From positions 507 to 64,506 of the forward strand of contig JANQJY010000049.1 in assembly GCA_028281385.1 (NCBI GenBank): a stretch of 64,000 nt of DNA, written 5' to 3'. The number at the start of each line of letters is the position of its first letter. Position 1 is the first letter of the stretch. Source of the stretch: Rickettsiales bacterium (GTDB lineage: Bacteria; Pseudomonadota; Alphaproteobacteria; Rickettsiales; UBA3002). A program made the translations under genes and the position numbers. A model generated the notes under the pieces. That model ran no database searches. It was given only the letters and a program-made list of their open reading frames with translations, and was not told where the DNA came from. This document shows positions 1,432-55,779 of the stretch, piece by piece.

Positions 1432-1507
1432 CCCTAGGGTTGCAAAAAAATCATAGCTTGGCTTTTTCCTGAAATGCTTCTATAGTGCGCTGCAACATTA
1501 TCATAAT

Positions 1508-2419
1508 ATGATCGGCACGCAGAAGATGGATTGGGACAAACTCAGAACCTTTTATACCGTCGCACAATCAAAAAGCCTGACCAAGGCGGCTGAGTCCCTG
1601 TCGATCAGCCAGTCTGCCATCAGCCGTCAGATCAGCGCCGTGGAATCCGATGTCGGCGTTACCTTGTTCCACCGCCACGCACGCGGATTATTGCTGACCG
1701 AACAGGGCGAAATCCTGTTCCGCACGGTCGCAGAAGTAGTCAACAAGCTACAAACCACCCAGAGCATTCTCGCCGAAACGTCCGAACGCCCACGCGGGCC
1801 GTTTCATATTACCGCTCCGGCAGCGATCGGCACTATCTGGCTCACGACAGTGATGAAGGAATTCACCAGCCTGTATCCTGATATTGAAGTCACGCTTTTC
1901 TGCGAAGACGAAGAGAGAGACCTGTCGATGCGTGAAGCCGATGTCGCCATCCGGTTATACCCGTCCAAACATCCCGATTTGGTGCAGAAAAAACTCGTCT
2001 CGCTGTCGAACAGCCTTTACGCATCGAATGATTACCTACATGAATACGGCACGCCGACCAGCATCGAAGCATTAAAAAGCCATCGAATTATCAGTTTCAG
2101 CAAATCATCTCAACTCCCCTTTCCGGAAGTAAACTGGCTGCTCAATCTGCCAGAAGTAAAGAAGCTGAAAATAAAACCAATCTTTCAAACCAACAGCTTA
2201 AACAGCATGCGCCGCGCCGTAAAAACAGGTATCGGCATTGCTGCCCTGCCGGACTATCTGATGTATCGTGCCCGTCATATCAGCCGATTGCTGCCTGATT
2301 TAAAAGCGCCGGAAACAAATGCTTATTTCGTCTATCCCGTTGAGTTAAAGAATTCCCGTCGTATTGCCGTTTTTAAAAATTTCATCACACGCAAATTGGC
2401 CGAATATAATTTTCATTGA
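1508..2419 (+). CDS. LysR-family regulator, probable LsrB/VtlR orthologue
   Basis: N-terminus MDWDKLRTFY...SQSAISRQ...LFHRHARGLLLTEQGE resembles rhizobial LsrB/VtlR; lies directly downstream of trxB as in Rhizobiales. Confidence 0.9.
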   Translation: MIGTQKMDWDKLRTFYTVAQSKSLTKAAESLSISQSAISRQISAVESDVGVTLFHRHARGLLLTEQGEILFRTVAEVVNKLQTTQSILAETSERPRGPFHITAPAAIGTIWLTTVMKEFTSLYPDIEVTLFCEDEERDLSMREADVAIRLYPSKHPDLVQKKLVSLSNSLYASNDYLHEYGTPTSIEALKSHRIISFSKSSQLPFPEVNWLLNLPEVKKLKIKPIFQTNSLNSMRRAVKTGIGIAALPDYLMYRARHISRLLPDLKAPETNAYFVYPVELKNSRRIAVFKNFITRKLAEYNFH

Positions 2420-6059: not shown

Positions 6060-6632
6060 TTATTTCCCTCCCGACAGCAGCGCTATCTTGCTCATAAAGG
6101 CTTCCGGCCCATCGGTAAAAAACAGCTTGATCTGCCGTGCAATATCGTCCAGCAACGGATCAATGAGGTTCCGGTCCGCTTTGGAAAAATCACTCAACAC
6201 ATAATTGCTGACCTGATCCTTGTCGCCGGGGTGATCGATACCGATACGCAATCGCCAATAATCCTTGCCGATATGGCAATCAATATCACGCAGTCCATTA
6301 TGGCCACCATGGCCACCGCCCTGCTTTATCCGAAGTTTGCCTGTCGGCAGATCCAGTTCATCATGCATCACCAGTATTTGCTCTGGCGGAATATCATAAT
6401 AAGACGCCATTTGCCCCACTGCCCTGCCGGAGTGATTCATAAATGTTGCCGGTTTGGCAAGAAGCATTTTGTCTCCAGCCAGACGGATATCGGTATGCTC
6501 AGCAGAAAATTTTTTCCGCCAGCCCGCATCGCCATAGCCCTCGGCCAGACGGTCCGCCAGCATAAACCCTACATTATGACGATGGTGTTGATATTGTTTC
6601 CCGGGATTGCCAAGCCCTACCAAAAGCCACAT
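6060..6632 (-). CDS. pth: Peptidyl-tRNA hydrolase
   Basis: VGLGNPG, RHNVGF, HDELDL, GGHNGLR. Confidence 0.98.
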   Translation of the reverse strand: MWLLVGLGNPGKQYQHHRHNVGFMLADRLAEGYGDAGWRKKFSAEHTDIRLAGDKMLLAKPATFMNHSGRAVGQMASYYDIPPEQILVMHDELDLPTGKLRIKQGGGHGGHNGLRDIDCHIGKDYWRLRIGIDHPGDKDQVSNYVLSDFSKADRNLIDPLLDDIARQIKLFFTDGPEAFMSKIALLSGGK

Positions 6633-15835: not shown

Positions 15836-16141
15836 ATGAAAAAAGAAAACAGTTTTTTTGACGATTTTTCCAAGCTTATGTCCTCCGCCTCTGGGGCAAT
15901 GATGGACATGAAACGCGAGATCGAGACCATTATCCACACCCAGATGGAAAGCTGGATGGATAAAATGCAACTGGTCACCCGCGAAGAGTTCGAGGCGGTA
16001 AAGGCGATGGCGGAAAAAGCACGCAAGGAAAATGTTGCACTGGCCAAACGACTGGACACGCTGGAAGGCAAAACACCTGCCAGAGCGAAGAAACCGGCAG
16101 CGAAAAAGACAGGGCCTACTAAAGGCAAAGCAAAATCATAA
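15836..16141 (+). CDS. UbiK/BMFP accessory factor
   Basis: LVTREEFEAV motif and coiled coil; AAGGA RBS before the ATG at 15836. Confidence 0.85.
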   Translation: MKKENSFFDDFSKLMSSASGAMMDMKREIETIIHTQMESWMDKMQLVTREEFEAVKAMAEKARKENVALAKRLDTLEGKTPARAKKPAAKKTGPTKGKAKS

Positions 16142-44386: not shown

Positions 44387-44932
44387 CTACCTGAGTTTCT
44401 TAAGATGCTTTTCGAGTTGCTCTTCTATCTGATAAAGGCGTAGCACAGGTGATTTGAGTTCTTTTGACTCGCGCGCAGCATAGGTACGCAACTCGGATAA
44501 GCACTCTTGAAACATTGCGTTGATGATAAGTTCTAGCTCGACACCAAATTCTTTTTGAAGAGTCGTTTTAATCTGCTCCACATCGCGCAGTTGATTATGT
44601 TTTGCCCCCGTCCCTTGATTTTTTACAATCGGCGACCACAGCATAAAGTGTTTCTGATAATCGGCGAAGTATGCGTTCGCGTATTGGATGTCTTTTCTGA
44701 ACTTTCTGATAAATCGGTCTACATTATCCGGTTGCCTGTTCTTAACGTACTGCAGACCCGTTATGAGGTGAATTGCCACTTCACAGACATAGACGATCTT
44801 TTCTTTGGCGTTGATACCAACTACATCGATTTCTCCCTGCACATCGGGCGTATATAAATTATACTCCACAAAATCGCAGCCTTTTATAATCTTTAGGTAT
44901 TCCCCCGCTATTTCTTCGCCAATATTGTGCAT
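44387..44932 (-). CDS. Hypothetical protein, possible PD-(D/E)XK nuclease fold
   Basis: GEEIAGEYL...QGEIDVVGI...VCEV resembles the E...D...ExK arrangement; fold not verified. Confidence 0.6.
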   Translation of the reverse strand: MHNIGEEIAGEYLKIIKGCDFVEYNLYTPDVQGEIDVVGINAKEKIVYVCEVAIHLITGLQYVKNRQPDNVDRFIRKFRKDIQYANAYFADYQKHFMLWSPIVKNQGTGAKHNQLRDVEQIKTTLQKEFGVELELIINAMFQECLSELRTYAARESKELKSPVLRLYQIEEQLEKHLKKLR

Positions 44933-44962
44933 GTTAATCCTAACGTTTGTAATACCCAAATC

Positions 44963-45008
44963 TGGCGTCCCCGAGAGGATTCGAACCTCCGACCCTCAGA
45001 TTAGGAAT
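44963..45008 (-). pseudogene. 3' half of the host tRNA-Arg(CCT), split by integration (att junction)
   Basis: Minus strand ATTCCTAATCTGAGGGTCGGAGGTTCGAATCCTCTCGGGGACGCCA: anticodon loop, T-arm, 3' acceptor strand and CCA. Confidence 0.95.
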
Positions 45009-45127
45009 GGCCAGCCGGTAGCTATACACGCTTATAGCGTCTTTTTAAATCCCTCGCAATACCAGGCGGTTTAAAAGATAAGGTTGGCTGCGGGTTTTAC
45101 CCGATTATAGGGCCTTTTTAACTCTCG

Positions 45128-45147
45128 ACCTTGCTATCGCCTTGCTA
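45128..45147 (+). repeat. Integrase arm-type repeat, left copy
   Basis: ACCTTGCTATCGCCTTGCTA, identical to 54619-54638; made of two CCTTGCTA units. Confidence 0.8.
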
Positions 45148-45208
45148 CCGAGGTTGTTGAAGAAATAGCAGGTGGTAAGATTCCACCCACTACTCTTTCT
45201 GTGCAGGC

Positions 45209-45352
45209 TTATTTCTTTTTGTTTGGCCGCTGCGTTAATGCCGAGGCTGCAGCTGTTTTTGCTGCCTTACTGCTCTTAGGGTTACGCAACACCTTTGATG
45301 CTGCTGTACCAGCTTTCTTGCCTGTTTTTTCGCAACTACGTTTTTTAGTCAT
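45209..45352 (-). CDS. Small Lys/Ala-rich basic protein (47 aa), not in the ORF track
   Basis: Hand translation MTKKRSCEKTGKKAGTAASKVLRNPKSSKAAKTAAASALTQRPNKKK; AAGGAG RBS and ATGA overlap with the upstream stop. Confidence 0.8.
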   Translation of the reverse strand: MTKKRSCEKTGKKAGTAASKVLRNPKSSKAAKTAAASALTQRPNKKK

Positions 45353-45621
45353 GATAGTGCTCCTTCCTTAATGATATATTCTTGCCACGGAATTGCGGCA
45401 GGATGAATGTGTGACAGGAATTGGACTATATCCTTCCTGCCATAATATCTGGGACGCCCGCAGCTTTCTGCCATTAGAATGATGGGCATGTACCCAAATA
45501 CAGCTTGCAGTGATAAGATCATATCTTCTGCCTGGCGGTTATTATTAAGGATATGCGGTTTAACCACTGCAATGGCAAACGTCACTCCTTGTTCACGTAT
45601 AACGGCACCTTGTATTCTCAT
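45349..45621 (-). CDS. Hypothetical protein (90 aa)
   Basis: GAGGAG RBS before the ATG at 45621; MRIQGAVIREQGVTFAIAVVK...YYGRKDIVQFL...IPW. Confidence 0.8.
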   Translation of the reverse strand: MRIQGAVIREQGVTFAIAVVKPHILNNNRQAEDMILSLQAVFGYMPIILMAESCGRPRYYGRKDIVQFLSHIHPAAIPWQEYIIKEGALS

Positions 45622-45632
45622 GCTATCCTCCT

Positions 45633-45956
45633 CTATCTCGAGCCACATGGCGGGTTAAACTGAGTACGTAAATGTTGTTCAATTCGTAGCCGGTCTTGCT
45701 GGTTCGGAACGTAGATCACGGCAACACCGAGCTGCTTATAGCCCTGTGCCTTCCATTGCGACTTTCTATCGTGATTTTCTACCCTTGACCGAACGGCTTG
45801 AGATTCACCAACATCAAGAACAATCTCCCAATTCGACGAATTTCGCCCTAAAATGACATACACACCGCTTTGATCGCGGAGGTGTCCAGTGGATAAGTAT
45901 GGTCCCTCACATTTTATGCCAGCAAGGGTAATGGCATCTGACAATATCGTATTCAC
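45633..45956 (-). CDS. Small GIY-YIG-like domain protein
   Basis: SGVYVILG...VLDVGES..VRSRVENH...IEQHLR..FNPPC; start uncertain (GTG 45956 after AAGGA). Confidence 0.7.
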   Translation of the reverse strand: MNTILSDAITLAGIKCEGPYLSTGHLRDQSGVYVILGRNSSNWEIVLDVGESQAVRSRVENHDRKSQWKAQGYKQLGVAVIYVPNQQDRLRIEQHLRTQFNPPCGSR

Positions 45957-46096
45957 TACGCTATCCTTTTCTGAAATTAACAGAGGCAAAATTAACTTTA
46001 CCTTCAGACAAGGATTGCTAGAATACACGTGCTAAGGTGAGCGTTCCTTGCGAAGGCTTACAATGGGGAATGTGGCCTCGTCCCATTCCCCATAAT

Positions 46097-46633
46097 CTAA
46101 ATATCGTGTTTGATCATAATTTCCCTCCTAATTTCTGCTGCTTCGTAAGATACACCAAAATCATCGCTGATTTCTTCTATGTCATGATACTCTCGCACCA
46201 ATTTTGTTGGCATAAGTAGAAAGCTCGCGAACGTGTTTGCCTGCCATTCAGGATCTTTATATGCAGGCACTCGATCTGTTGTTGCCCTGTTTAATGCTAG
46301 CCGTTCATCTGAATGAAGAATTAAGTGACCTATTTCATGCGTTAAAGTGTAACGATCACGGCCATTGCCAGCGCATGCCCCTTCGTACACATCTTCTCGT
46401 AGGCATATAGTGGGTTCTCCTACTATTTTTCTTCCTTCCTCTCCACGCATCTCCCGTTCAGTTAGTATGCGAAGGTGATAGCCTTCTATAACCTCTGGCA
46501 ATACAAACTCTGCAATCTCAACAATCGGCAATCGTGGTTTCTCGCCTACAGGAAGCATTGAACGAAATCGCTCAGTGATCCCTGCTATCTTTGCACGACT
46601 AAGAGGCAGTGCCTCTAGTGCTAATTTACTCAT
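46097..46633 (-). CDS. ImmA/IrrE-family Zn metallo-endopeptidase
   Basis: RDRYTLTHEIGH (HExxH), EWQANTFASFLLMP, FGVSYEAA. Confidence 0.93.
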   Translation of the reverse strand: MSKLALEALPLSRAKIAGITERFRSMLPVGEKPRLPIVEIAEFVLPEVIEGYHLRILTEREMRGEEGRKIVGEPTICLREDVYEGACAGNGRDRYTLTHEIGHLILHSDERLALNRATTDRVPAYKDPEWQANTFASFLLMPTKLVREYHDIEEISDDFGVSYEAAEIRREIMIKHDI

Positions 46634-46988
46634 TTTCCTTTTCCTCCCCTCCCAGAATCGTCTTTATCGCATCAAGCTGTTCTGCATTTAATTTATCAAA
46701 CCCACGCGCGAGGGCTGCTATGCACTCTCCATCGTCAAGAGGATTGTGTTTAAGCATCGCCTCGTTTTTCGACATTAAGGCCTTATCTTCGAGTTTTACT
46801 TGCTGATCTTTTGATAATTTATAATGTTTCGTTATTTTCTTTATCAAGTCATCTGGGATGTCGCGCTTACCTGTTTCAATTGCGGATAGGTAAGATGATG
46901 AAATGTTTGCTGCCTCAGCCATATCCTTTAGAAGAATACCCTCTTCTAATCGCAACCTTCGCAGCTCTTTTCCAAATTCAGTTAACAT
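46626..46988 (-). CDS. XRE-family HTH repressor
   Basis: FGKELRRLR...LKDMAEAANISSSYLSAIETGKR; GGAGG RBS before the ATG at 46988; overlaps the peptidase start. Confidence 0.93.
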   Translation of the reverse strand: MLTEFGKELRRLRLEEGILLKDMAEAANISSSYLSAIETGKRDIPDDLIKKITKHYKLSKDQQVKLEDKALMSKNEAMLKHNPLDDGECIAALARGFDKLNAEQLDAIKTILGGEEKENE

Positions 46989-47148
46989 GGCAGTACCTCC
47001 CTGATTTTGGATTACAGTAACACAAGCGCCACGGAAGATCAACAAAGATTGAAAAGAAATCAACAAATTTGTGGATCGCAAATTGTTTTCCTTGCTTTCT
47101 CAGAGAGATACGCAATAATTCTTCTTAGAAACAGAAGATTAGAACCCG

Positions 47149-48330
47149 ATGCCGACCATTAAAATTACCAAGCGTGAAGTAGATGCGATACCGTATGCCG
47201 AATACGACAAGCAGCAATTCTATTGGGATACCGAGCTAAAGGGCTTTGGCCTGCGTGTCGGGCATAAATCCAAAACCTTTATCGTCCAGCGCGACATAAA
47301 TGGCAAAACCAAACGCACCACCATTGGTCGCTTTGACCCATGGACCGTCGAACAAGCGCGCACCGAAGCGCGGGAAATATTAATACAGATGGGCAAGGGC
47401 ATCGATATTGCCGCAGAAAAGCGCAAAGCTGCCGCCCAGTCGATCACGCTGACAGAAGCATGGGCGTTGCATAAAGAAGCGATGAAACGGAAAAATGCGT
47501 CGCCCAACACCATTGCCGATTATGACCGCGCAGTGAACACCCATCTGGCTAAATGGAAGAACCGCAACCTTGTCGATATTACGCGTGCAGAGGTAAAAGA
47601 AATGCACAGCACCATTGGCAAAACAGGTGGCTACGGCGCAAACGGTATTATGCGTTGCTTCCGTGCCATCTATAACACCGCGATGAAGGACAATGAGTTT
47701 TTGCCACCCAACCCCTGCATCGCCATCCAGTGGTTTAAGGAATATCGCCGGCAGGAACCTATCTCTGATAATAAACTGAAAGATTGGTACAAGCTGGTGC
47801 AAACCATCCCTAACACTGCACGGCGTGACTACCACCTGTTTGTAATTTTTACTGGACTACGCCGTACCGATGCCTGCACCATCAAATGGGCAGACATTGA
47901 TATGAAGGCCGGAACATTGCATCGGCCTAATCCGAAGGGCGGTAAGGAACGTGCCTTTACCATTCCACTACCCGATGTGTGTTTAGAGATATTGGAGCGG
48001 AGAAAGGAAGAAAACGCCATTCTCTACGGTAAGCGCTGTCCGTGGGTATTCGCTACCACAAATCGCAATGGTGAAGTGATTGCCATGCGTGATCCCAAAG
48101 AAACCAAGCGTGGTCTGCCATCGTCACACCGATTGCGCGATACCTATACCACAGCCTGCAACAGCGCTGGCTTGTCGGCTTATGATATTGAGGTCCTGAC
48201 CAACCATCGTCCCGCCAACAACAGTGTAACGGCTGGCTATATCAGCCAAAGCATTGACCATTTGCGAAAACAGCAGCAGAAAGTAGCCGATTATTTGAAG
48301 GGGAAAATGGGCTGGAATAAAACGGTATAA
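47149..48330 (+). CDS. Tyrosine recombinase/integrase with N-terminal arm-binding domain
   Basis: WDTELKGFGLRV arm domain; TGLRR, K(GG), HRLRDTY, LTNH, Y catalytic residues. Confidence 0.96.
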   Translation: MPTIKITKREVDAIPYAEYDKQQFYWDTELKGFGLRVGHKSKTFIVQRDINGKTKRTTIGRFDPWTVEQARTEAREILIQMGKGIDIAAEKRKAAAQSITLTEAWALHKEAMKRKNASPNTIADYDRAVNTHLAKWKNRNLVDITRAEVKEMHSTIGKTGGYGANGIMRCFRAIYNTAMKDNEFLPPNPCIAIQWFKEYRRQEPISDNKLKDWYKLVQTIPNTARRDYHLFVIFTGLRRTDACTIKWADIDMKAGTLHRPNPKGGKERAFTIPLPDVCLEILERRKEENAILYGKRCPWVFATTNRNGEVIAMRDPKETKRGLPSSHRLRDTYTTACNSAGLSAYDIEVLTNHRPANNSVTAGYISQSIDHLRKQQQKVADYLKGKMGWNKTV

Positions 48331-48673
48331 AAAGACGCTATAACAGTTTAGTAACATGCTGTAATATTGAAATTATTATGCTCTATTGCGCTTGACTTCT
48401 CTTGAGTTTATTGGCATATAGATAGGGTTGGTAGAGCGATCCACCATTAGGTGTGAGGTGACCATTTGCCCGGTGCAGTCCGGGGGCCAACCGGTGGGGA
48501 TTGAAGAGCGTGGGAAATCCCCTTAAAGCAAACGGCACGTGCCATTCTTAGTGATGGTCAGACCCGCCGCCGACACAGTTTTGTTTTATTAAACAATGCT
48601 AGTGTCGGTGCTTCTCTCAATTAATATGTCTGAATGAACTCCTGATGCTAGCTCTAACTATAAGGAGTTAGTA

Positions 48674-48961
48674 ATGTCTAAGATTAATGACAACATGGCT
48701 CATGTCATCGAGCAGTGTATAGATAATGCACTTAAAAAACTTTTCTCTCATGATTTTGCATACCCGGAATACTTTGACACTAAACGGGCTGCTGCCTACC
48801 TCGGCTTGAGCAAGCAACGGTTGGAAATATGGCGAGTTTCTGGAGATGGCCCCCCATACACTAAACTAGCCCAAGCCGTTCGCTACAAACGTAGCGACCT
48901 CGATGTGTTTATGGCCAAGCACCTCCGTAACAACACAACTGAGGGAGGGGCCAATGTCTAG
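48674..48961 (+). CDS. AlpA/excisionase-like HTH protein
   Basis: FDTKRAAAYLGLSKQRLEIWRVSGDGPPYTKL..AVRYKRSDLD; TAAGGAG RBS. Confidence 0.9.
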   Translation: MSKINDNMAHVIEQCIDNALKKLFSHDFAYPEYFDTKRAAAYLGLSKQRLEIWRVSGDGPPYTKLAQAVRYKRSDLDVFMAKHLRNNTTEGGANV

Positions 48962-51170
48962 AGATATTATTGCCGATGCAAAAGCATACACCGAAGCCGG
49001 ACTCTCTGTTTTTCCTCTACGAGAACGCAGTAAAGAACCGTTTGGCAAATGGAAAGAGTATGATGCTAAGGCCGATGATTACGGGAGCTTTAATAGCGCT
49101 AGTAACATCGGCGTTAAATTAGGTGAGCCAAGTGGCGGCTTAATTGATATCGATTGTGACTGGGAGACTTTTAGTCTGCTGGCAAGTAAGTTTTTAGCAC
49201 ATTTGCCCAGTTTTGGTCGTGCATCCTCTCGCCACAGCCATCGTGTGTTTTTTGCCAATGAATCGGATAATTTTAAAACGGTGCAGTTAAAGCTCCCGTC
49301 TGTATGTAAAGATGACCCGCGGTTGCCTACCGAACACACTCTATGTGTGGCAGAATTTCGGGGGACAGGCGCTTACACCATGTTTCCGCGCTCGGTGCAT
49401 CCTAACGGGGAAGAGCTAGCGTGGGAAACACCAGATGGTGCAATGCCGGAAATCCCCACTTTTGCATATGACGCTATTTTAAAGCATGTTCGTGTCTTGG
49501 CGTTTTTATCGGTTATACTGCAATGCTATCCGGGAAAAGGATCGCGTGATGAAATGCACTTTAAATTGGCTGGTGTTTTAGCGCGCGCAGGTGCCCCTTC
49601 CGATGAGATTGATCGCATTAACCTGACATTGGCTAAATTAGCGAAAGACGACGAAGCAGAAATGCGCGCTAAGGGACAAGATGCCGTTGCTCGCGTAAAT
49701 GCGGGTGAGCCTGTGGCAAGTATGGCCTCGCTAATTGAAACGTTAGGCCTGCCTGATGCCTGCATCGCCTGCTTTAATGGCTGGCTTGGTATTTCGGGAT
49801 CACATGACGATAAGGTGCGTGCACACCCCTCTATGCCATATCCTACTGCCGAACAATTTCGCCAAAGCAAATATCCCGATGCCATGCACCATAACGGCAG
49901 TTATCTGGTCTATGATGGCGCAAGTTATCGGGAGTATGAGGATGATACCGTTAGGTCGACCCTGTATAAATATCTTGCGAAGGCCGTCTATGAGCATGAC
50001 GGGGTCCTTGTACCGTACAATCCGAATGCAGCAAGGGTGAGTAATGTGATTGATTCGTTTAAAGGCATTATGCATCGCTCGACCGGATTATACCAGCCGC
50101 CATGCTGGCTCAAGAGCATGGAAGGTCTACCGCCTGCAAATGAGATCGTCGCCTGCCAGAATGGCTTGCTACATTTGCCTACAGGTGAATTGTTACCGCC
50201 AACACCTAACTTTTTTACACGTAATGCGCTGGGATTTGATTATGACCCTGGTGCACCGCTACCAAAAAAGTTTAGAGCGTTTCTTGATGACATATGGCCT
50301 AACGACAGCGATTCGATAGGCGTCTTGCAGGAAATGTTTGGTTATCTGCTGGTAGCAGATACATCGCAGCAGAAGATTTTTCTGATCGTTGGCCCCCCTA
50401 GATCGGGCAAAGGCACGTTAATTCGTGTTCTGACGAAACTTGTGGGCGAGCATAACACCGTGGCACCCAGTCTAAACTCGCTAAGTAGCGATTTTGGGAT
50501 GCAAGGGCTGATCGGTAAGCTGATGGCAACGGTGAGCGATGTTCGCATTAGCAACAAAGCAAATGCCACAGCTATATCGGAAAATCTACTGCGCATCTCC
50601 GGCGAAGATAAGGTCGAGGTAAATCGCAAATATAAGAACGCATGGGAGGGGTATCTGAAAGTGCGTTTTGTGATTATGACCAACGAAGTCCCACAATTCG
50701 CCGATAACAGTGGTGCATTAGCCAAGCGGTTTGTACCGTTAGTGATGCGCCATAGCTTTTTCGGTAAAGAAAACCCAAACCTGACCAATGAGCTGCTTGA
50801 AGAATTGCCTGGAATCCTGAACTGGGCAATCGAGGGGTGGCGGCGATTAAATGAGCGTGGGCATTTTGTGGTGCCTGAGTCTGCCACTGAATTAGTCGAT
50901 AGTTTGACGACACTGGCCTCGCCTATATCGGCATTTGTGGCTGAATGCTGCGAACAGGGAAGCGGCTATACTGTCCGAAAAGAGGCTTTATATGAGATTT
51001 GGTGTAAATGGTGTATAACAGAAGGCGATATGCGTCCCGGCACATCAGCCACCTTCGGTCGCAATTTGATGTCGCTGGGCGGTATCGACACCGACCGCGA
51101 AACGGGTGGGGAAAGAAAGAACCTCTACACCGGCATTAAACTGAAGGATAATCCTTACGATGCGTCTTAA
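48954..51170 (+). CDS. Prim-Pol primase fused to a D5/P4-family SF3 helicase
   Basis: N-terminal VFPL...NIGVKLG...DIDCD...PRSVHPNG; C-terminal GPPRSGKGT Walker A, ISGED, MTNEVP, GILNWAIEG; start at ATG 48954. Confidence 0.93.
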   Translation: MSRDIIADAKAYTEAGLSVFPLRERSKEPFGKWKEYDAKADDYGSFNSASNIGVKLGEPSGGLIDIDCDWETFSLLASKFLAHLPSFGRASSRHSHRVFFANESDNFKTVQLKLPSVCKDDPRLPTEHTLCVAEFRGTGAYTMFPRSVHPNGEELAWETPDGAMPEIPTFAYDAILKHVRVLAFLSVILQCYPGKGSRDEMHFKLAGVLARAGAPSDEIDRINLTLAKLAKDDEAEMRAKGQDAVARVNAGEPVASMASLIETLGLPDACIACFNGWLGISGSHDDKVRAHPSMPYPTAEQFRQSKYPDAMHHNGSYLVYDGASYREYEDDTVRSTLYKYLAKAVYEHDGVLVPYNPNAARVSNVIDSFKGIMHRSTGLYQPPCWLKSMEGLPPANEIVACQNGLLHLPTGELLPPTPNFFTRNALGFDYDPGAPLPKKFRAFLDDIWPNDSDSIGVLQEMFGYLLVADTSQQKIFLIVGPPRSGKGTLIRVLTKLVGEHNTVAPSLNSLSSDFGMQGLIGKLMATVSDVRISNKANATAISENLLRISGEDKVEVNRKYKNAWEGYLKVRFVIMTNEVPQFADNSGALAKRFVPLVMRHSFFGKENPNLTNELLEELPGILNWAIEGWRRLNERGHFVVPESATELVDSLTTLASPISAFVAECCEQGSGYTVRKEALYEIWCKWCITEGDMRPGTSATFGRNLMSLGGIDTDRETGGERKNLYTGIKLKDNPYDAS

Positions 51171-51176
51171 TTACCC

Positions 51177-51282
51177 GTCCTAGTTGTCTTGGTAAAATGC
51201 TTATTGTTTCGATTGCCAATTATGAATGTAATATTCGGTAAAAAGCGAGAGTAGAATAAGAAATTACCGGGACAACTAGGAC
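51177..51282. repeat. 19-bp inverted repeat after the primase gene (candidate element origin)
   Basis: GTCCTAGTTGTCTTGGTAA (51177-51195) / TTACCGGGACAACTAGGAC (51264-51282), 2 mismatches, AT-rich spacer. Confidence 0.6.
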
Positions 51283-51736
51283 CCCTCCTTCTTGCAATTC
51301 CAAAGAATGTGATGAATGTGATAATTTTCTTATCGCGCACGGGCGCGATGAGGCGATTTAGAATTGAAACGATTGAAATTTTTATCCTTATGCATACGCG
51401 CATGTGAAGAACATGAAGATTTCTTCATCACGCGCGGGATGCACGTCTTGTTTTTTTCTACCATCCTGCCCACCCCCGCATCTTCGCGTTGACACTCTCC
51501 GATATGAGCGTATCTTTCTAGCTAGAGCTATCGAAGGTAGCTTTGGGGCTTCAAACCTCATCTGGGCGGCTGACATCAGCCGTAATGATGTCGCCTTTTC
51601 GACCTTATGGCCGGGAGGCGACAATGTATGTCCAATGCCTCGCGGCTAAAGATTGTCGCGATCATCCCAGATGATTTTGAACTCCCGGCTACCAGTCTTA
51701 GGGCTGGTGGTCGCTTGTTTAGATACGGAGAAAAGA

Positions 51737-52543
51737 ATGATCACGCTACAGGAAATACTGAATCTAAAAACTGACCGATTTCACAACGCTAAAGTAAAGC
51801 TAGTGCGACACAAAGACAGTCGCGCCGAATACCGCGATCTGATACGCAACAGGTCGGGACTCCTGGAATATCAACGAGAACAGGCCAAGGCGGTTTTTAA
51901 GGGGTGTAGCTACATTATCGCCTTTGTTGGGCTTGAGAGACGCCGCTCTGTCCTTTTCGGCGTGTTTTCTGTCGATGGCGTGACCCAACGCGACGGTATG
52001 TATTATTATGACCTGACCCATCTGCCTGAATGCGCTGACCTTGAGAACCGCATCATAATTGATTGGGGTGGTAGTGCACAGGCATGGCACCAATGGTATG
52101 ATGCGCAATCGAAAGAGGTGGTTGAGATATTACCAGCGGGCTACCTCGGCAACTTTCCTGGGCTGCTGGATTTTGTGCTGGATTACGATGAATTGAAGCG
52201 GCTGATCGACAATCCCGAAGCGAACCATGATTGGAAGCATCACCTCTCTGCTGTTAACGGTATCTACCTGATCCTCGATACCCAAACCGGCATGCAGTAT
52301 ATCGGTTCTGCCAACGGTAAAGAAGGCATCTGGCAGCGCTGGGGCGAGTATGCAGCCAGCAAACATGGTGGCAATAAAGAGTTAATAGCATCGCTGGAGA
52401 CTGACCCAAACTATCAGCGACACTTCCGCTATTCGATCCTGCAAACACTTCCCAGTAACATTACAAAAACCGAAATTGATAAGATCGAAAGCCTTTATAA
52501 AAAGAAATTTGGTTCCAAGGCACACGGGCTGAATAGGAATTAA
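51737..52543 (+). CDS. GIY-YIG nuclease family protein
   Basis: C-terminal GIYLILD...QYIGSA...IWQRW..Y...E..YK...LNRN; GGAG RBS before the ATG at 51737. Confidence 0.9.
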   Translation: MITLQEILNLKTDRFHNAKVKLVRHKDSRAEYRDLIRNRSGLLEYQREQAKAVFKGCSYIIAFVGLERRRSVLFGVFSVDGVTQRDGMYYYDLTHLPECADLENRIIIDWGGSAQAWHQWYDAQSKEVVEILPAGYLGNFPGLLDFVLDYDELKRLIDNPEANHDWKHHLSAVNGIYLILDTQTGMQYIGSANGKEGIWQRWGEYAASKHGGNKELIASLETDPNYQRHFRYSILQTLPSNITKTEIDKIESLYKKKFGSKAHGLNRN

Positions 52544-52563
52544 TAAGCTCTGGTAGAACTTAT

Positions 52564-52884
52564 TTAATAAGTGCCTGTAGCTTTGCGCGTATCTATCTCT
52601 TCTGCAGCTATTTTAATTGCCTCATCAAAAACACTGTCTTCAATTGTATCGCCATCAAGTAGTGCATCAACAATTAAGCTCGCAAGTGATTCGCTTGTGA
52701 TGGCTCGGTCATGGTCTAAAAAATAATCACCCGCAGCTTTACGCGCATTTATCTCTTCTGCAGCTATCTCAATAGCAAAACTAGCATCTTTGTTTTTCAT
52801 CATATCAGCTTCTATAATTCTTTTAATTATCAAACTGGCCAGATTTTCGCTAGAAAGAGGCTTATTTTCTTGATCTTTACTCAT
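52564..52884 (-). CDS. Putative immunity protein made of two tandem ~50-aa repeats
   Basis: SENLASLI...AIEIAAEEINARKAAGDY / SESLASLI...AIKIAAEEIDTRKATGTY; acidic; overlaps the toxin stop. Confidence 0.7.
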   Translation of the reverse strand: MSKDQENKPLSSENLASLIIKRIIEADMMKNKDASFAIEIAAEEINARKAAGDYFLDHDRAITSESLASLIVDALLDGDTIEDSVFDEAIKIAAEEIDTRKATGTY

Positions 52885-54439
52885 AGTTCTTTCTCTGTTT
52901 TGGAAATTTTATTTTTCTATACGGCACGCCCTTAACATCTAGATCCACTGCGGGTTCTCCACTTTTTGATTTGGGGCGTTTGCCTACCCAATCACCATTT
53001 GGCAAACGTTTTCCTTCACCTGGATAATTTTTAGGGGTATCTGGTTTGCCTCTTCCGAACTTGTCATATAGTTCGTCTGCTGCTTTCTGGCCACCTTTTT
53101 CCTCTCGATATTCAGGACGCCTTCCCGGTCTTCCAATTGGTTTTCCACCCGGAATTATAACATCTTTTGGGTTTGGTGGTTTTCGGAAAATACTCCCCAC
53201 TGCAACACCAATCCGCGCGATGCCTCCGACAACGATTCGTCCTAAGGCAGCGACACCGCCGATCAGTGCTTCCGGATAAACCGGTTCAGCGCGGCCAGAT
53301 GGGTCGACCTCGCTCGGCAGGCGCGGTAGCTCTGTCAGTGGTTCAGCGTAACAGCGACAATTGAATTCTTCGCCCGGATGGCCGGTGGACGGCGGCTCAT
53401 CCCACGCAAAAATTCTATCGTCATTCTCAGCATGACTGCCGCGGACTTTTTCATCATCCATCGACCGCCAGACATAATGCGTCACATCTGCTTCTCTTTG
53501 ACGTATCTCACTCAGCTTACCGTTAAAGTGCAGCGCCAGCATTTCAACACGGTCGGGAATGGTCACATCCTGCCAAGTCTGTAACGCATCTTGCATATGG
53601 TCCACTATTTGCTCACTGTTCCTACCTTGCCTGACGAGTTTATTTAGCTCTTTGTCGATAAATCTCCTTGTGCCGTTCTCGATGATATCAACCGCCAGAT
53701 CGGTAAATGCATCGCTAGCTTCCGGCATGACTTCCGATTCGGAGACAATCGATTTATTCCCTAGTAACTGCCCTTGTATTTCGGCATTGATTTGCTGAAT
53801 TTCCTCGGCGATGCGTCTGGCATTTTCTTTCAGAGGAAAGGCGATCTCGGGCAGCAGTTCTTCCGTCGTCATCTGGTCAAAACGCTGACGGATCGGTTGG
53901 ACAATATAATCGGGCGTGTGAATGTCTGCTGTAGAGATGTTCAGGCTATTTAAAAGAGTTGCCTGCGCTTTTCGTCTGCGTTTGGCTTTATCGCGCAGCA
54001 ATTCGTTATCCGTATCGGGAAGCGAGTTATGGAGAATTTCCCACAGCGCATCTTTCAGTTGCTGCTTTGCCAGTACGGTATCACCCTGGCGTTTTGCCTC
54101 AACATACGCATGTATATTGGCATAAAAATCGGTTGTTTCATCGACCAGCGCAGAATCTTCGTAATATAAAAACGCAATCGCCAATCGTTCATTGAGCAAC
54201 AAATCATCCCAGATCGCGCCATACAACACCGTTTCTAGTTGGCCGTCATCGCTATCCAGTTCCTGTTTATACTGCTGCTTCTCAGTCGTTTTAGACAAGT
54301 GCGTGCTGTGCGGCAGAAAACTGATGATTAGTTCATCACGCATCCGGTGGTAGGTTTGTATATCGTGTAATGATGTGCTGGGCTTAAGCTTGCGGGCCTC
54401 TGTCCGTAATTCCCGTATTTGTGTAACGTCATATCTCAT
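52877..54439 (-). CDS. MuF (phage head morphogenesis, SPP1 gp7-like) protein with C-terminal toxin-like extension
   Basis: MuF core YVWRSMDDEKVRGSH...HPGEEFNCRC (~53340-53485), Gly-rich hydrophobic linker, ~100-aa basic tip; start at ATG 54439 or TTG 54466. Confidence 0.85.
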   Translation of the reverse strand: MRYDVTQIRELRTEARKLKPSTSLHDIQTYHRMRDELIISFLPHSTHLSKTTEKQQYKQELDSDDGQLETVLYGAIWDDLLLNERLAIAFLYYEDSALVDETTDFYANIHAYVEAKRQGDTVLAKQQLKDALWEILHNSLPDTDNELLRDKAKRRRKAQATLLNSLNISTADIHTPDYIVQPIRQRFDQMTTEELLPEIAFPLKENARRIAEEIQQINAEIQGQLLGNKSIVSESEVMPEASDAFTDLAVDIIENGTRRFIDKELNKLVRQGRNSEQIVDHMQDALQTWQDVTIPDRVEMLALHFNGKLSEIRQREADVTHYVWRSMDDEKVRGSHAENDDRIFAWDEPPSTGHPGEEFNCRCYAEPLTELPRLPSEVDPSGRAEPVYPEALIGGVAALGRIVVGGIARIGVAVGSIFRKPPNPKDVIIPGGKPIGRPGRRPEYREEKGGQKAADELYDKFGRGKPDTPKNYPGEGKRLPNGDWVGKRPKSKSGEPAVDLDVKGVPYRKIKFPKQRKNYE

Positions 54440-54525
54440 GAACGAGAGGATACATTGGAGTTGCAACGCTCGGAAGGGGCGGAATGTGACTTTTGGGGAT
54501 TTTTATTAAAAGATACGCGTGAAGC

Positions 54526-54602
54526 TGGTGGTCCCGGCGGGATTCGAACCCACGGCTTCCAGATTAGGAATCTGGCACTCTATCCAGCTGAGTTACGGGA
54601 CC
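54526..54602 (-). tRNA. tRNA-Arg(CCT), element-borne complete copy
   Basis: GGTCCCGTAACTCAGCTGGATAGAGTGCCAGATTCCTAATCTGGAAGCCGTGGGTTCGAATCCCGCCGGGACCACCA: all four stems pair, CCA encoded. Confidence 0.95.
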
Positions 54603-54618
54603 AGTTTGTTGCTTCTCT

Positions 54619-54638
54619 ACCTTGCTATCGCCTTGCTA
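54619..54638 (+). repeat. Integrase arm-type repeat, right copy
   Basis: ACCTTGCTATCGCCTTGCTA, identical to 45128-45147. Confidence 0.8.
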
Positions 54639-54710
54639 TTCCCATTTTTGCGTTTTTTATACTCTTGATTCCTAACCTACATCAAACAGTTCTGCGGCCC
54701 CAACCCTGGC

Positions 54711-54750
54711 ATTAGGAATCTGATGCTCTATCCTGCTGAGCTACGGGGAC
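54711..54750 (-). pseudogene. 5' half of the host tRNA-Arg(CCT), split by integration (att junction)
   Basis: Minus strand GTCCCCGTAGCTCAGCAGGATAGAGCATCAGATTCCTAAT; its GTCCCCG and TCAGA strands pair with CGGGGAC and TCTGA of the half at 44963-45008. Confidence 0.95.
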
Positions 54751-54930
54751 GTGATCTTTCCGTAATTTCCTCAAGATAATCAGCTATAGCCACATCTGCC
54801 AACCAATTTAACAGGCGATTGGCTGTGTTTTGTATAATGCATGGTTTCTGTTGCGTGATTGTGAATTTCTTATGTATGTTGCAAATACATAATTATTATG
54901 CGGTAAAAGAAAGAGCATGAGGTCATTACC

Positions 54931-55779
54931 ATGAAGCCATTGCCTAACCTCAAGGTCGGCATTGCCCAGATCGCACCGGAAAGGATGGACATTGAGTCCA
55001 ATATTAAAAAGCATGAAGCCTTTATCAAAAAGGCGGCGAAAGAGGGGGTCGAGCTGCTTATATTTCCGGAACTGTCGCTGACGGGCTATGAATTTGACCA
55101 GAATTTTCCGGATCTCGCGATACCGCATGACAGTGAGCTATTGACCGGTCTTTCCAATATTGCGCCACAGATGCGTATTATCGTCGGTTTTGTCGAGGAG
55201 TCGGATTCCTCCCTGTTTTATAACTCTGCGGCAAAGCTTTACGATGGTGCGGTGGATTTCATTCATCGTAAAATCAATTTACCGACCTATGGAGATTTAT
55301 ATGAAGATAAATGGTTTTCAGAAGGACGGAAAATCGAAAGCTTTATCGTCGATCACTGGCGTGCGGGAATATTGATCTGTGCCGATCTGTGGAATCCGGC
55401 ACTGGTGCATCTGGTCGCTCTGCATGGAGCGAAGCTGCTGATTGCTCCGATGAACTCCGCAGATGCAAGCGTGGACTTTGATAATCAAAGTAACTGGAGG
55501 CGTGCCATGTCCTTTTATTCCTTCATTTACGGGATGCCTTCGATTATGGCAAACCGTGTGGGAACGGAGGGAGATAAAAAATTCTGGGGCCGCTCCTGTA
55601 TTTACGGTCCGTATGGTGATTTGCTTGCGGAGGGTGCAAAATATGAAGAGGATCTGGTGATCGGGGAAATTAAATGGTCTGTCGTCAAGCGGGCCCGATT
55701 CAACCTGCCAACCCTGCGCGATGCCAATTTTTCGCTGGTGCTGAGAGAAATGAAACGGCTGGACCAGCTTCTGACATGA
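54931..55779 (+). CDS. Nitrilase/carbon-nitrogen hydrolase family protein
   Basis: Catalytic triad motifs FPELS, HRKINLP, LICADLW. Confidence 0.92.
   Translation: MKPLPNLKVGIAQIAPERMDIESNIKKHEAFIKKAAKEGVELLIFPELSLTGYEFDQNFPDLAIPHDSELLTGLSNIAPQMRIIVGFVEESDSSLFYNSAAKLYDGAVDFIHRKINLPTYGDLYEDKWFSEGRKIESFIVDHWRAGILICADLWNPALVHLVALHGAKLLIAPMNSADASVDFDNQSNWRRAMSFYSFIYGMPSIMANRVGTEGDKKFWGRSCIYGPYGDLLAEGAKYEEDLVIGEIKWSVVKRARFNLPTLRDANFSLVLREMKRLDQLLT

What the first reader, a model, noticed from the sequence alone, without database searches (positions are those of the whole stretch)
44963..54750. Element splits the host tRNA-Arg(CCT) at the anticodon and supplies a complete foreign replacement tRNA
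Seen: joining 54750-54711 to 45008-44963 over the shared ATTCCTAAT core gives a normal cloverleaf (GTCCCCG/CGGGGAC acceptor, TCAGA-TTCCTAA-TCTGA anticodon arm, CCA). Neither junction rebuilds a tRNA. A second, complete tRNA-Arg(CCT) with different stems lies inside the element, 108 nt downstream of the 5' half on the same strand. Established: tRNA-targeting integrases usually restore the gene because attP carries the displaced fragment. Inference: this is a disrupt-and-replace strategy. It needs only a 9-bp core, so it could target any host's tRNA-Arg(CCT) whatever its 3' sequence. The replacement may be driven by the host tRNA promoter, and keeping AGG decoding could penalise deletion of that end of the element.
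Basis: partly seen in the sequence, partly recalled or inferred. Interest (0 to 1): 0.9.

Follow-up and report, generated by a model that had tools for sequence, protein, structure and literature searches.

The report
Island splits tRNA-Arg, carries its replacement
A 9.7-kb mobile island sits inside the host's only tRNA-Arg(CCT) gene, does not rebuild it and carries its own complete copy, which is a known phage trick (tRNA-dependent lysogeny) seen here in a small non-phage defence island.

Summary
Joining the two copies of the 9-bp core in silico removes 9711 bp and gives a 77-nt tRNA-Arg(CCT). Neither junction holds a tRNA. The only complete tRNA-Arg(CCT) in the window and in the whole assembly is the one inside the element, 108 nt after the 5' half. 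A 20-nt arm-type repeat flanks the core on both sides.

The element encodes a tyrosine integrase, an Xis-like HTH, a primase-helicase, an XRE/ImmA pair, a MuF-like protein and a Uzume-like defence gene.

The design recurs. In a well-supported clade of 10 related integrases, 7 elements split a tRNA-Arg gene at an 8-10 bp core and carry a complete tRNA with the same anticodon (CCT, CCG or TCT). Two elements restore the gene conventionally and one is unresolved. Near-identical integrases sit in tRNA-Arg(CCT) genes with different stems in Algihabitans and Kordiimonas.

The "disrupt-and-replace" reading therefore holds, but it is not new. It was published in 2024 as tRNA-dependent lysogeny in actinobacteriophages and has been noted in Sinorhizobium prophages. 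What is new is the element type, the host range and the tRNA-Arg targets. Complementation, expression of the cargo tRNA and mobility were not tested.

The parts
44963..45008 (-). Displaced 3' half of the host tRNA-Arg(CCT), from the anticodon loop to CCA. It includes a core copy at 45000-45008.
   Evidence: No tRNA is called at this junction on its own.
45128..45147 (-). Arm-type repeat TAGCAAGGCGATAGCAAGGT (a tandem pair) on the integrase-side arm, 120-139 nt from the core.
   Evidence: Exactly 2 copies in the window, 0 expected. G217 and the L068/L069 elements have repeats of their own at like positions.
45349..45648 (-). ORF of 99 aa, function unknown (phrog_23950).
   Evidence: E 1.4e-24.
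45633..46028 (-). ORF of 131 aa, function unknown.
   Evidence: No Pfam or PHROG hit. Weak PADLOC PDC-S14 hit, E 2e-5.
46097..46633 (-). ImmA/IrrE-type metalloprotease (Peptidase_M78).
   Evidence: E 2.7e-14.
46626..47081 (-). XRE-family HTH regulator, a likely repressor paired with ImmA.
47149..48330 (+). Tyrosine integrase with an N-terminal arm-binding domain (Arm-DNA-bind_3 + Phage_integrase), 393 aa, reading frame intact.
   Evidence: clade placement.
48674..48961 (+). HTH_17 protein, excisionase/AlpA-like.
   Evidence: PF12728, E 2.9e-8; phrog_668, phrog_66.
48903..51170 (+). Primase-polymerase / D5-type helicase, 755 aa (replication module).
   Evidence: Prim-Pol, D5_N, DUF5906; DNA primase PHROGs, E 1.8e-68.
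51653..52543 (+). GIY-YIG protein matching UzuA of the Uzume anti-phage system (cargo gene).
   Evidence: PDLC03973, E 4.4e-93, profile 2-278 of 278; GIY-YIG.
52564..52884 (-). ORF of 106 aa, function unknown.
   Evidence: No significant family.
52877..54466 (-). Protein of 529 aa with a Mu F-like head-morphogenesis domain (residues 270-373). It is the only virion-type gene.
   Evidence: PF04233, E 7e-15; phrog_324, E 3.6e-26.
54526..54602 (-). Complete cargo tRNA-Arg(CCT), 77 nt. Its anticodon loop holds the third core copy (54563-54571).
   Evidence: (RF00005, 69.5 bits).
54619..54638 (-). Second copy of the arm-type repeat, 73-92 nt from the core and 16 nt upstream of the cargo tRNA.
54656..54685 (-). 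Promoter-like TTGATG, 18 nt, TATAAA in the spacer, read by eye. It overlaps an inverted 8-nt copy of the core (54668-54675).
   Evidence: Read. The scan did not call it, because its rule needs T at the last -10 position. This is inference only.
54711..54750 (-). 5' half of the host tRNA-Arg(CCT), ending in the core copy at 54711-54719.
54773..54802 (-). Promoter-like site (TTGGCA, 18 nt, TATCTT) upstream of the host 5' half.
   Evidence: It was the only site found, and shuffles gave a mean of 1.3, so it is weak on its own.

Best explanation
A 9.7-kb integrative island is inserted in the anticodon loop of the host's tRNA-Arg(CCT) gene. A lambda-type, arm-binding tyrosine integrase put it there. 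Its attP has arm-type sites on both sides but shares only the 9-bp anticodon-loop core with attB, so integration leaves two dead halves. A complete tRNA-Arg(CCT) that lies right beside attP inside the island then decodes AGG in place of the split gene. This is the logic of tRNA-dependent lysogeny, carried by a small replicative defence island rather than a temperate phage.

Shown here: the split, the short core, the arm repeats, the intact integrase frame, the cargo tRNA, its being the only copy in the assembly, and recurrence of the design in relatives. Inferred: that the cargo is expressed, charged and needed; that the island still moves; and how it transfers between cells.
For: Split, join and single-copy status. 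The joined halves differ at only a few positions from the intact tRNA-Arg(CCT) genes of same-family genomes G001, G004 and G008, with the acceptor stem the same. The cargo differs from the joined halves at 19 of 77 positions.

The attP anatomy is supported by a 20-nt repeat found exactly twice, 120 nt and 73 nt from the core, with 0 expected. The integrase has an arm-binding domain. The flanks are ordinary host genes: a sulfotransferase, a CN hydrolase and a BCCT transporter.

Recurrence: in the 100/99-supported clade of 10 integrases, 7 elements have an orphan 5' half, an orphan 3' half that joins with it into a tRNA-Arg, a core of 8-10 bp, no tRNA at either junction, and a complete cargo tRNA with the same anticodon. 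The anticodons are CCT in five, CCG in one and TCT in one. Cargo anticodon and target anticodon match in 7 of 7.

In G217, and in the complete genomes G401 (Algihabitans) and G402 (Kordiimonas), pattern searches found no other complete tRNA-Arg(CCT). The cargo tRNAs of the L069 and L097 elements differ by paired changes in the T stem, as expected of working tRNAs.

Published precedent with bench proof exists in mycobacteriophages: PMC10865867 (abstract and sections 5, 10, 11 read).
Against: Nothing shows that the cargo is transcribed, processed or charged. No RNA data were laid.

tRNA-Arg(CCU) may be dispensable. The genome has tRNA-Arg(tct), and AGG is rare at 2.96 per 1000 codons, so the cargo may not be needed for survival.

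The assembly is 95.7% complete, so a second tRNA-Arg(CCT) could be unassembled.

In G217 the cargo is identical to the host tRNA (77 of 77), so "foreign replacement" is not general.

G069, which has the closest integrase (82%), has an orphan 5' half, but no complete tRNA-Arg(CCT) was found in a 99%-complete assembly. If that absence is real, it would argue that disruption alone is tolerated.

In G805 and G802 the two junctions lie on different contigs, and they are linked only because the halves fit.

No circular junction was seen in the contigs.
Confidence: 0.78

Rival explanations
1. The cargo tRNA is not there to complement the split gene. Loss of tRNA-Arg(CCU) is tolerated because tRNA-Arg(UCU) reads AGG. 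The island carries the tRNA for another reason, such as codon supply for its own or a helper's genes, or a decoy or spare against anticodon nucleases. Alternatively the tRNA is simply the evolutionary source of the attP core, which would explain why the anticodons match.
For: tRNA-Arg(tct) is present. AGG is rare in the host (2.96 per 1000) and 1.8 times commoner in the island's genes (5.47 per 1000, 15 codons). G069 shows an orphan 5' half with no complete tRNA-Arg(CCT) found. The arm repeat lies between the attP core and the cargo's own core, which fits an attP that arose beside or from the tRNA.
Against: Cargo and target anticodons match in 7 of 7 elements across three Arg isoacceptors, and the two conventional relatives show no extra tRNA copy. 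This is what complementation predicts. In actinobacteriophages the cognate tRNA was shown to be needed (PMC10865867). The G069 assembly is fragmented at exactly these contigs.
Confidence: 0.12
2. The island is a fixed, immobile remnant, and the cargo has become the host's permanent tRNA-Arg(CCT) gene. That would be tRNA gene replacement rather than an active disrupt-and-replace cycle.
For: No circular junction was found in the contigs, and island depth is close to flank depth. The design was found in 0 of the 400 other sampled genomes of the class, so it is rare. G048 shows decayed 5'-half remnants beside an intact tRNA.
Against: The integrase, Xis-like, primase, repressor and ImmA frames are all open. 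Both core copies and both arm repeats are identical. One low-depth contig (2.1 against about 13-15) joins 45000 to 54712 and skips exactly 9711 bp. This is a weak hint of an empty site, since only 30 letters lie on the shorter side.
Confidence: 0.08
3. Assembly or binning artefact: the junctions are chimeric joins at conserved tRNA sequence in a metagenome.
For: tRNA sequence is shared among organisms in the sample. Many short contigs from other tRNAs pile up at 44671-45041 and 54317-55058.
Against: A single Logan contig of 9766 bp covers the island and reaches into both halves. It overlaps the flank contigs, and their depths are alike. The same architecture occurs in a complete isolate genome and in a MAG chromosome.
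Confidence: 0.02

Closest known systems
tRNA-dependent lysogeny of actinobacteriophages (Fionnbharth K4, Cluster L, Gaia and others; Guerrero-Bustamante & Hatfull, mBio 2024, PMC10865867)
   Same: A tyrosine integrase with an arm-binding domain; arm-type sites flanking attP; attB inside a tRNA gene; a common core of only 8-17 bp, so no tRNA is rebuilt; and an element-borne tRNA of the same isotype and anticodon. Close relatives in the same integrase family restore the tRNA conventionally.
   Different: Here the carrier is a 9.7-kb island with no virion genes apart from a MuF-like protein, so "lysogeny" does not strictly apply. The hosts are Alphaproteobacteria and one Planctomycetaceae MAG, not Actinobacteria. 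The targets are tRNA-Arg(CCT/CCG/TCT), not Lys, Ile2 or Leu. In 4 of the 7 elements the cargo tRNA abuts the attP arm. The requirement for the tRNA was not tested here.
[quoted passage not shown]
   Same: An alphaproteobacterial host; integration in the middle of a tRNA gene (tRNA-Leu(UAG)) that inactivates it; and an element-borne tRNA of the same kind that resembles the genes of unrelated Alphaproteobacteria.
   Different: Those are intact prophages with a different tRNA. Their integrases were not compared here.
Conventional anticodon-loop tRNA-targeting islands and phages (Williams 2002, recalled; Islander abstract, PMC4383910, seen in the search listing)
   Same: The crossover is in the anticodon loop, and a displaced 3' half marks one end next to int. 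Cousin integrases here do exactly this at tRNA-Met(CAT) (L047, L049) and at tRNA-Arg(CCT) in Kofleriaceae (G803, G804).
   Different: Those attP sites carry the whole 3' half and rebuild the gene. Here only 9 bp are shared.
Small int/AlpA/primase islands that carry defence genes (P4-like satellites, PICI-like elements; recalled, not tested with a satellite finder)
   Same: The island has int, an Xis/AlpA-like HTH, a primase-helicase, a repressor and one defence gene (Uzume-like). The Kordiimonas relative carries a type I restriction-modification system.
   Different: No capsid-redirecting or small-terminase genes were recognised, no helper phage was identified, and membership was not tested.
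Tycheposons of Prochlorococcus (bioRxiv 10.1101/2020.12.28.424599, passages read)
   Same: Small tRNA-targeting elements with a tyrosine recombinase that carry cargo or are PICI-like.
   Different: In the passages read, they are described as flanked by partial tRNAs of about 40 nt next to a full-length tRNA, which is the conventional arrangement.

Membership tests
tRNA-dependent lysogeny (PMC10865867) | Tyrosine-integrase site-specific integration at an attB that overlaps a host tRNA gene | tested here: met
   The halves join into tRNA-Arg(cct). The integrase has both domains. Arm repeats flank the core. The recombination itself is inferred from the sequence.
tRNA-dependent lysogeny (PMC10865867) | Short common core (about 8-17 bp), so that no functional tRNA is rebuilt at either junction | tested here: met
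   The core is 9 bp. No tRNA is found at the junctions by ARAGORN or Rfam.
tRNA-dependent lysogeny (PMC10865867) | [quoted passage not shown] | tested here: met
   The cargo is tRNA-Arg(cct) at 54526-54602. The anticodons match in 7 of 7 related elements.
tRNA-dependent lysogeny (PMC10865867) | The disrupted tRNA is the host's only copy and essential, and the element's tRNA is required for survival | tested here: inconclusive
   It is the only tRNA-Arg(cct) in a 95.7%-complete assembly. tRNA-Arg(tct) is also present. Essentiality cannot be tested with these tools.
tRNA-dependent lysogeny (PMC10865867) | The carrier is a temperate phage | tested here: not met
   Pfam was run on the 11 ORFs listed as parts and PHROGs on 10 ORFs. 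Only a MuF-like domain is virion-related; no capsid, portal, terminase, tail or lysis gene was found. It works like the described system but is not a phage.
Heterobivalent (arm-binding) tyrosine integrases | An N-terminal arm-DNA-binding domain plus a C-terminal catalytic domain | tested here: met
   PF13356 (E 1.1e-14) and PF00589 (E 1.3e-10), both above their cut-offs.
Phage satellites (P4-like / PICI) | int, a regulator and a primase-replicase, plus genes that hijack a helper's capsid or packaging | tested here: inconclusive
   The first three are present. No hijacking gene was recognised. No satellite classifier was available.
Uzume defence system (PADLOC UzuA) | A full-length match to the UzuA profile | tested here: met
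   PDLC03973, E 4.4e-93, profile positions 2-278 of 278. Defence activity was not tested.

The most novel reading that the evidence does not exclude
The int, attP and tRNA stretch is a portable, self-complementing integration cassette of non-phage defence islands. Its attP core and its cargo anticodon change together, which lets one integrase clade hop among tRNA-Arg isoacceptors (CCT, CCG, TCT) and across orders and even phyla. Only the near-invariant anticodon loop of the target has to match. Over time such cassettes would replace native tRNA genes with captured ones. In G217 the cargo equals the host gene. The window's cargo resembles tRNAs of other alphaproteobacterial lineages, and the Kordiimonas island's cargo resembles the tRNA type found in the window's own order.
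Probability: 0.45. Interest if true: 0.55.

Novelty: new member of a known kind. Interest (0 to 1): 0.4.

Why it matters
The 2024 paper ends by asking how common tRNA-dependent lysogeny is outside actinobacteriophages. This locus and its six relatives show the same logic in small replicative defence islands. They occur in three alphaproteobacterial orders, in one alphaproteobacterial MAG of unstated order, in one Planctomycetaceae MAG and in one unclassified MAG, and they target tRNA-Arg.

There are two practical consequences. First, island finders that look for a tRNA plus a long 3' direct repeat will miss such elements, and tRNA annotators will report a foreign gene as the host's own. Second, the compact int-attP-tRNA module, especially the roughly 1.6-kb version in the cultured Algihabitans albus ac2, is a candidate broad-host integration tool, and it makes the tRNA requirement testable at the bench. 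The mechanism itself is already described, so this extends known biology rather than overturning it.

Tried and rejected
Decayed element-borne 3' half. I considered that the sequence after the 5'-half junction is a decayed 3' half, because a 10-nt run there resembles the start of the T arm of the Kordiimonas host half. Alignment A3 shows no wider likeness, and Rfam finds nothing there. I dropped this as unsupported.

Cargo as the real host gene. I considered that the complete tRNA is the host's and the halves come from another element. This was rejected because the halves match the tRNA of same-family genomes, and the arm repeat places the 108-nt spacer inside the element.

Inversion or tandem-integration models for G217's inverted, identical cargo. 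Working them through on paper, none reproduces the observed order. The origin of that cargo (capture or gene conversion) is left open.

Empty-site synteny. tblastn of five flank proteins against the 3-kb loci around intact tRNA-Arg(CCT) in 7 relatives gave no hit. There is therefore no syntenic empty site, only likeness of the tRNA itself.

Wider searches.
- A strict tandem pattern (5' half, then a second D-arm and anticodon 100-130 nt on) matched only G000 among 401 sampled genomes of the class and nothing in viral contigs.
- The search for related loci with the single integrase found nothing in genome contigs. With alignment A2 it found 29 loci in genome contigs, 2 in metagenome contigs and 2 in viral contigs.

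Sequencing runs. Runs X2 and X3 hold only short, low-depth pieces of the island. No bridging piece was listed for them, so they show nothing about the junctions. No circular joint was seen. Because these runs are kept as contigs, that absence proves nothing.

G069 (82% integrase) could not be resolved. Its integrase contig is 6.6 kb and cut at both ends. One contig holds an orphan 5' half and another holds a 3' half that does not fit it.

Literature. Searches found no paper describing this design in non-phage islands or at tRNA-Arg. The library lacks most subscription journals, and supplements were not opened. The supplementary tables of PMC11476347 and PMC10865867 might list further cases.

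Full report
**1. The observation**

ARAGORN finds a single tRNA in the window, tRNA-Arg(cct) at 54526-54602 on the minus strand. On that strand, a tRNA 5' half runs from 54750 to 54711 and ends in ATTCCTAAT. A 3' half starting with the same nine bases runs from 45008 to 44963 and ends in CCA. Joining the two at the shared core in a script removes 9711 bp, and ARAGORN then calls a regular 77-base tRNA-Arg(cct). The circularised 9711-bp piece holds one tRNA, the cargo.

An Rfam scan of 44700-55000 at E up to 1 finds only the cargo (RF00005, 69.5 bits) and nothing at either junction. The core occurs three times in 64 kb against 0.42 expected, and the third copy is the cargo's own anticodon loop. 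The cargo starts 108 nt after the 5' half and agrees with the joined host tRNA at 58 of 77 positions.

**2. Is the assembly sound, and which tRNA is the host's?**

The whole assembly is 2.15 Mb in 120 contigs and 95.7% complete. It has 33 tRNAs, including one each of Arg(acg), Arg(tct) and Arg(cct), and the last is the cargo.

Among 61 related genomes, 8 (including this one) match the 5' half with at most 3 mismatches. In the 7 others the match belongs to a complete tRNA-Arg(cct). The tRNAs of same-family genomes G001, G004 and G008 differ from the window's two halves at only a few positions and share the same acceptor stem, whereas the cargo differs in the acceptor, D, anticodon and T stems. 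So the halves are the native gene.

In the best-holding public run, which may be the source sample, one Logan contig of 9766 bp runs from 44975 to 54740. It reaches into both halves and overlaps the flank contigs. Depths are 14.9 for the island and 13, 11.9 and 9.8 for the flanks. One contig of depth 2.1 joins 45000 to 54712 and skips exactly 9711 bp, but only 30 letters lie on its shorter side. This is a weak hint of an intact gene somewhere in the sample, nothing more. No circle junction was seen.

The flanks encode ordinary host functions: a sulfotransferase on one side and a CN hydrolase and a BCCT transporter on the other.

**3. Anatomy of the island**

Between the two core copies lie:
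- two small ORFs of unknown function
- an ImmA/IrrE protease and an XRE regulator
- a 393-aa tyrosine integrase with an Arm-DNA-bind_3 domain
- an HTH_17 Xis/AlpA-like protein
- a Prim-Pol/D5 primase-helicase
- a GIY-YIG protein that matches the Uzume defence protein UzuA over its full length (E 4.4e-93)
- a 106-aa ORF
- a 529-aa protein with a Mu F-like domain
- the cargo tRNA

There are no capsid, portal, terminase, tail or lysis genes, so this is a small replicative island of satellite-like build that carries a defence gene. It is not a prophage.

A 20-nt repeat, TAGCAAGGCGATAGCAAGGT, occurs exactly twice in the window (0 expected). One copy is 120 nt from the core on the integrase side. 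The other is 73 nt from the core on the far side, 16 nt before the cargo tRNA. These are the expected arm-type sites of a lambda-like attP. They place the 108-nt spacer, and hence the cargo, inside the element. In the circular form the order is cargo tRNA, arm site, core, arm site, regulators, int.

**4. Relatives**

The integrase finds an 82% relative (G069) and a 64% relative (G217) among 401 genomes of the same order; all others are at or below 39%. An alignment of the three found 29 more loci in named genomes.

A maximum-likelihood tree of 33 integrases gives a 100/99-supported clade of 10, every one of which lies beside a tRNA-Arg gene or fragment. For each I looked for orphan halves and complete copies. 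I then joined the halves in a script.

Seven elements share the window's design. In each, the orphan halves join into a tRNA-Arg, the core is 8-10 bp, neither junction holds a tRNA, and a complete cargo tRNA has the same anticodon.

| Element | Host as labelled | Anticodon | Cargo position and orientation | Host vs cargo identity |
|---|---|---|---|---|
| Window (G000) | same order as G217 | CCT | direct, 108 nt after the 5' half | 58/77 |
| G217 | MAG labelled Rickettsiales | CCT | inverted, 1.26 kb in | 77/77 |
| G805 (54% integrase) | Alphaproteobacteria MAG | CCG | direct, about 110 nt | 70/77 |
| G401 | Algihabitans albus ac2, complete genome | CCT | direct | 60/77 |
| G402 | Kordiimonas MAG chromosome | CCT | direct, 86 nt | 65/77 |
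| G801 | Planctomycetaceae MAG | TCT | inverted, abutting the int stop codon | 64/77 |
| G802 | uncultured bacterium | CCT | inverted | 60/77 |

Two Kofleriaceae elements (G803, G804) look conventional. Each genome has one 5' half, within a complete gene, and a second 3' half next to int. G069 is unresolved.

More distant cousins at 33-37% identity, also from this order, sit beside 3' halves of tRNA-Met(CAT). In L047 and L049 a complete tRNA-Met lies at the other end, which is the conventional arrangement.

Caveats: G805 and G802 are split over two contigs, and "no other copy" rests on pattern searches.

**5. What the relatives add**

First, cargo and target anticodon agree in 7 of 7 elements over three isoacceptors. 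A functional link predicts this.

Second, the Algihabitans and Kordiimonas integrases are almost identical (tree branches 0.008 and 0.011). Their DNA is 88% alike over 4.2 kb at the int end and 87% alike over the spacer and cargo end, while the middle differs. The hosts belong to different orders, and their tRNA halves differ in the anticodon and acceptor stems. Consistent with that, ATTCCTAAT is the only invariant block across the tRNA-Arg(CCT) genes aligned.

Third, the two cargo tRNAs of that pair differ by paired changes in the T stem, which suggests selection on the fold.

Fourth, G217 and the L068/L069 pair each have their own repeat at both ends, at positions like the window's.

Fifth, the Kordiimonas island carries RepB-primase-like and AAA_25 proteins and a type I restriction-modification system. 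These are again defence cargo and not phage genes.

**6.

Drive by the host promoter. A promoter-like site lies upstream of the 5' half, and no terminator-like site lies between it and the cargo, so read-through is possible in the window. But the cargo is inverted in G217, G801 and G802, so the design does not depend on it. The spacer also has a near-consensus TTGATG, 18 nt, TATAAA that the scan's rule did not accept.

Penalty on deletion. Precise excision would restore the host gene, so only imprecise loss of the cargo end would be penalised, and only if tRNA-Arg(CCU) matters. AGG makes up 5.3% of Arg codons (1517 codons in 1165 long ORFs), and tRNA-Arg(tct) is present. Need for the cargo is therefore plausible but unproven. 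That tRNA-Arg(UCU) can read AGG by wobble is recalled knowledge, not a result of any call.

**7. Comparison with what is known**

The strategy is published. Guerrero-Bustamante and Hatfull (mBio 2024, PMC10865867; abstract and sections 5, 10 and 11 read) define tRNA-dependent lysogeny by an attP/attB core of about 10 bp (8-17 bp in their Table 2), no reconstruction of the tRNA, and a phage tRNA of the same isotype that lysogens need. They note arm-type sites flanking the core, and they describe close relatives that restore the gene. They cite prophage Lj965 of Lactobacillus johnsonii as an earlier sighting and ask how common the design is elsewhere.

Two papers on Sinorhizobium meliloti (PMC11476347 and PMC12429752, passages read) report prophages that inactivate tRNA-Leu(UAG) and carry a replacement more like that of unrelated Alphaproteobacteria. 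Tycheposons (bioRxiv 10.1101/2020.12.28.424599, passages read) are conventional.

My four literature searches found no report of this design in non-phage islands or at tRNA-Arg. The library is partial and supplements were closed.

**8. Verdict**

The locus works like tRNA-dependent lysogeny and meets four of that system's sequence-level criteria. It fails the "temperate phage" criterion, and essentiality is open. I file it as a new member of a known kind.

The worthwhile extras are three: the clade-wide recurrence with matching anticodons, the near-identical integrase module in two orders, and the non-phage defence-island carrier. Interest is 0.40.

Noticed in passing
window 51653-52543 (+): The island's GIY-YIG protein matches the PADLOC profile for UzuA (Uzume anti-phage system) over its full length (E 4.4e-93), so the island is a small defence island.
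   Followed up: partly
L007 1400-1950 (-) (G048, same order, another family): Upstream of an intact tRNA-Arg(CCT) lie two extra units, each a 5' half ending in the core followed by about 111 nt of spacer with a promoter-like end. The two spacers are near-identical. This looks like remnants of elements that carried a promoter plus a 5' half, the reverse of the usual 3'-half rule. No integrase is nearby; the only hit on that contig is about 140 kb away.
   Followed up: partly
G069: L052 about 1481-1519 (+), L057 about 1501-1546 (+), L040 (whole 6.6-kb contig): The genome with the closest integrase (82%) has an orphan tRNA-Arg(CCT) 5' half followed by foreign DNA, a 3' half on another contig whose stems do not fit it, and no complete tRNA-Arg(CCT) by two pattern searches in a 99%-complete assembly. 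Either the cargo is unassembled or this host lives without the gene.
   Followed up: partly
L041 7702-7778 (-) against 6403-6442 and 15887-15933 (+) (G217): The cargo tRNA is identical (77 of 77, plus 5 further bases after CCA) to the joined host halves, and it is inverted and 1.26 kb from the junction. The cause may be capture from this host lineage or gene conversion; this is unexplained.
   Followed up: partly
window 54668-54675 (-): An inverted copy of 8 of the 9 core bases (TTAGGAAT) lies in the spacer, 36-43 nt from the core and inside the promoter-like stretch. The Kordiimonas and Algihabitans spacers have GGAATC at a like place. It may be an extra integrase or regulator site.
   Followed up: no
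L069 14140-19865 (-): The Kordiimonas island carries a complete type I restriction-modification system (HsdS, HsdM, HsdR) as cargo.
   Followed up: partly
G000 contig C118 857-1583 (outside the window): ARAGORN calls a permuted (two-piece) tmRNA. As I recall, this form is usual for Alphaproteobacteria.
   Followed up: no
L104 160-255 (+) (G804, Kofleriaceae MAG): ARAGORN calls a 96-nt "tRNA-Pyl(cta)" about 1.2 kb upstream of the tRNA-Arg(CCT). It is probably a false call or a suppressor-like gene; I did not examine it.
   Followed up: no
L097 1338-1414 (-) (Algihabitans cargo tRNA): As I read, the cargo has an A opposite C in its anticodon stem (position 30 against 40) where the Kordiimonas copy has G-C. 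ARAGORN still calls it a tRNA.
   Followed up: no
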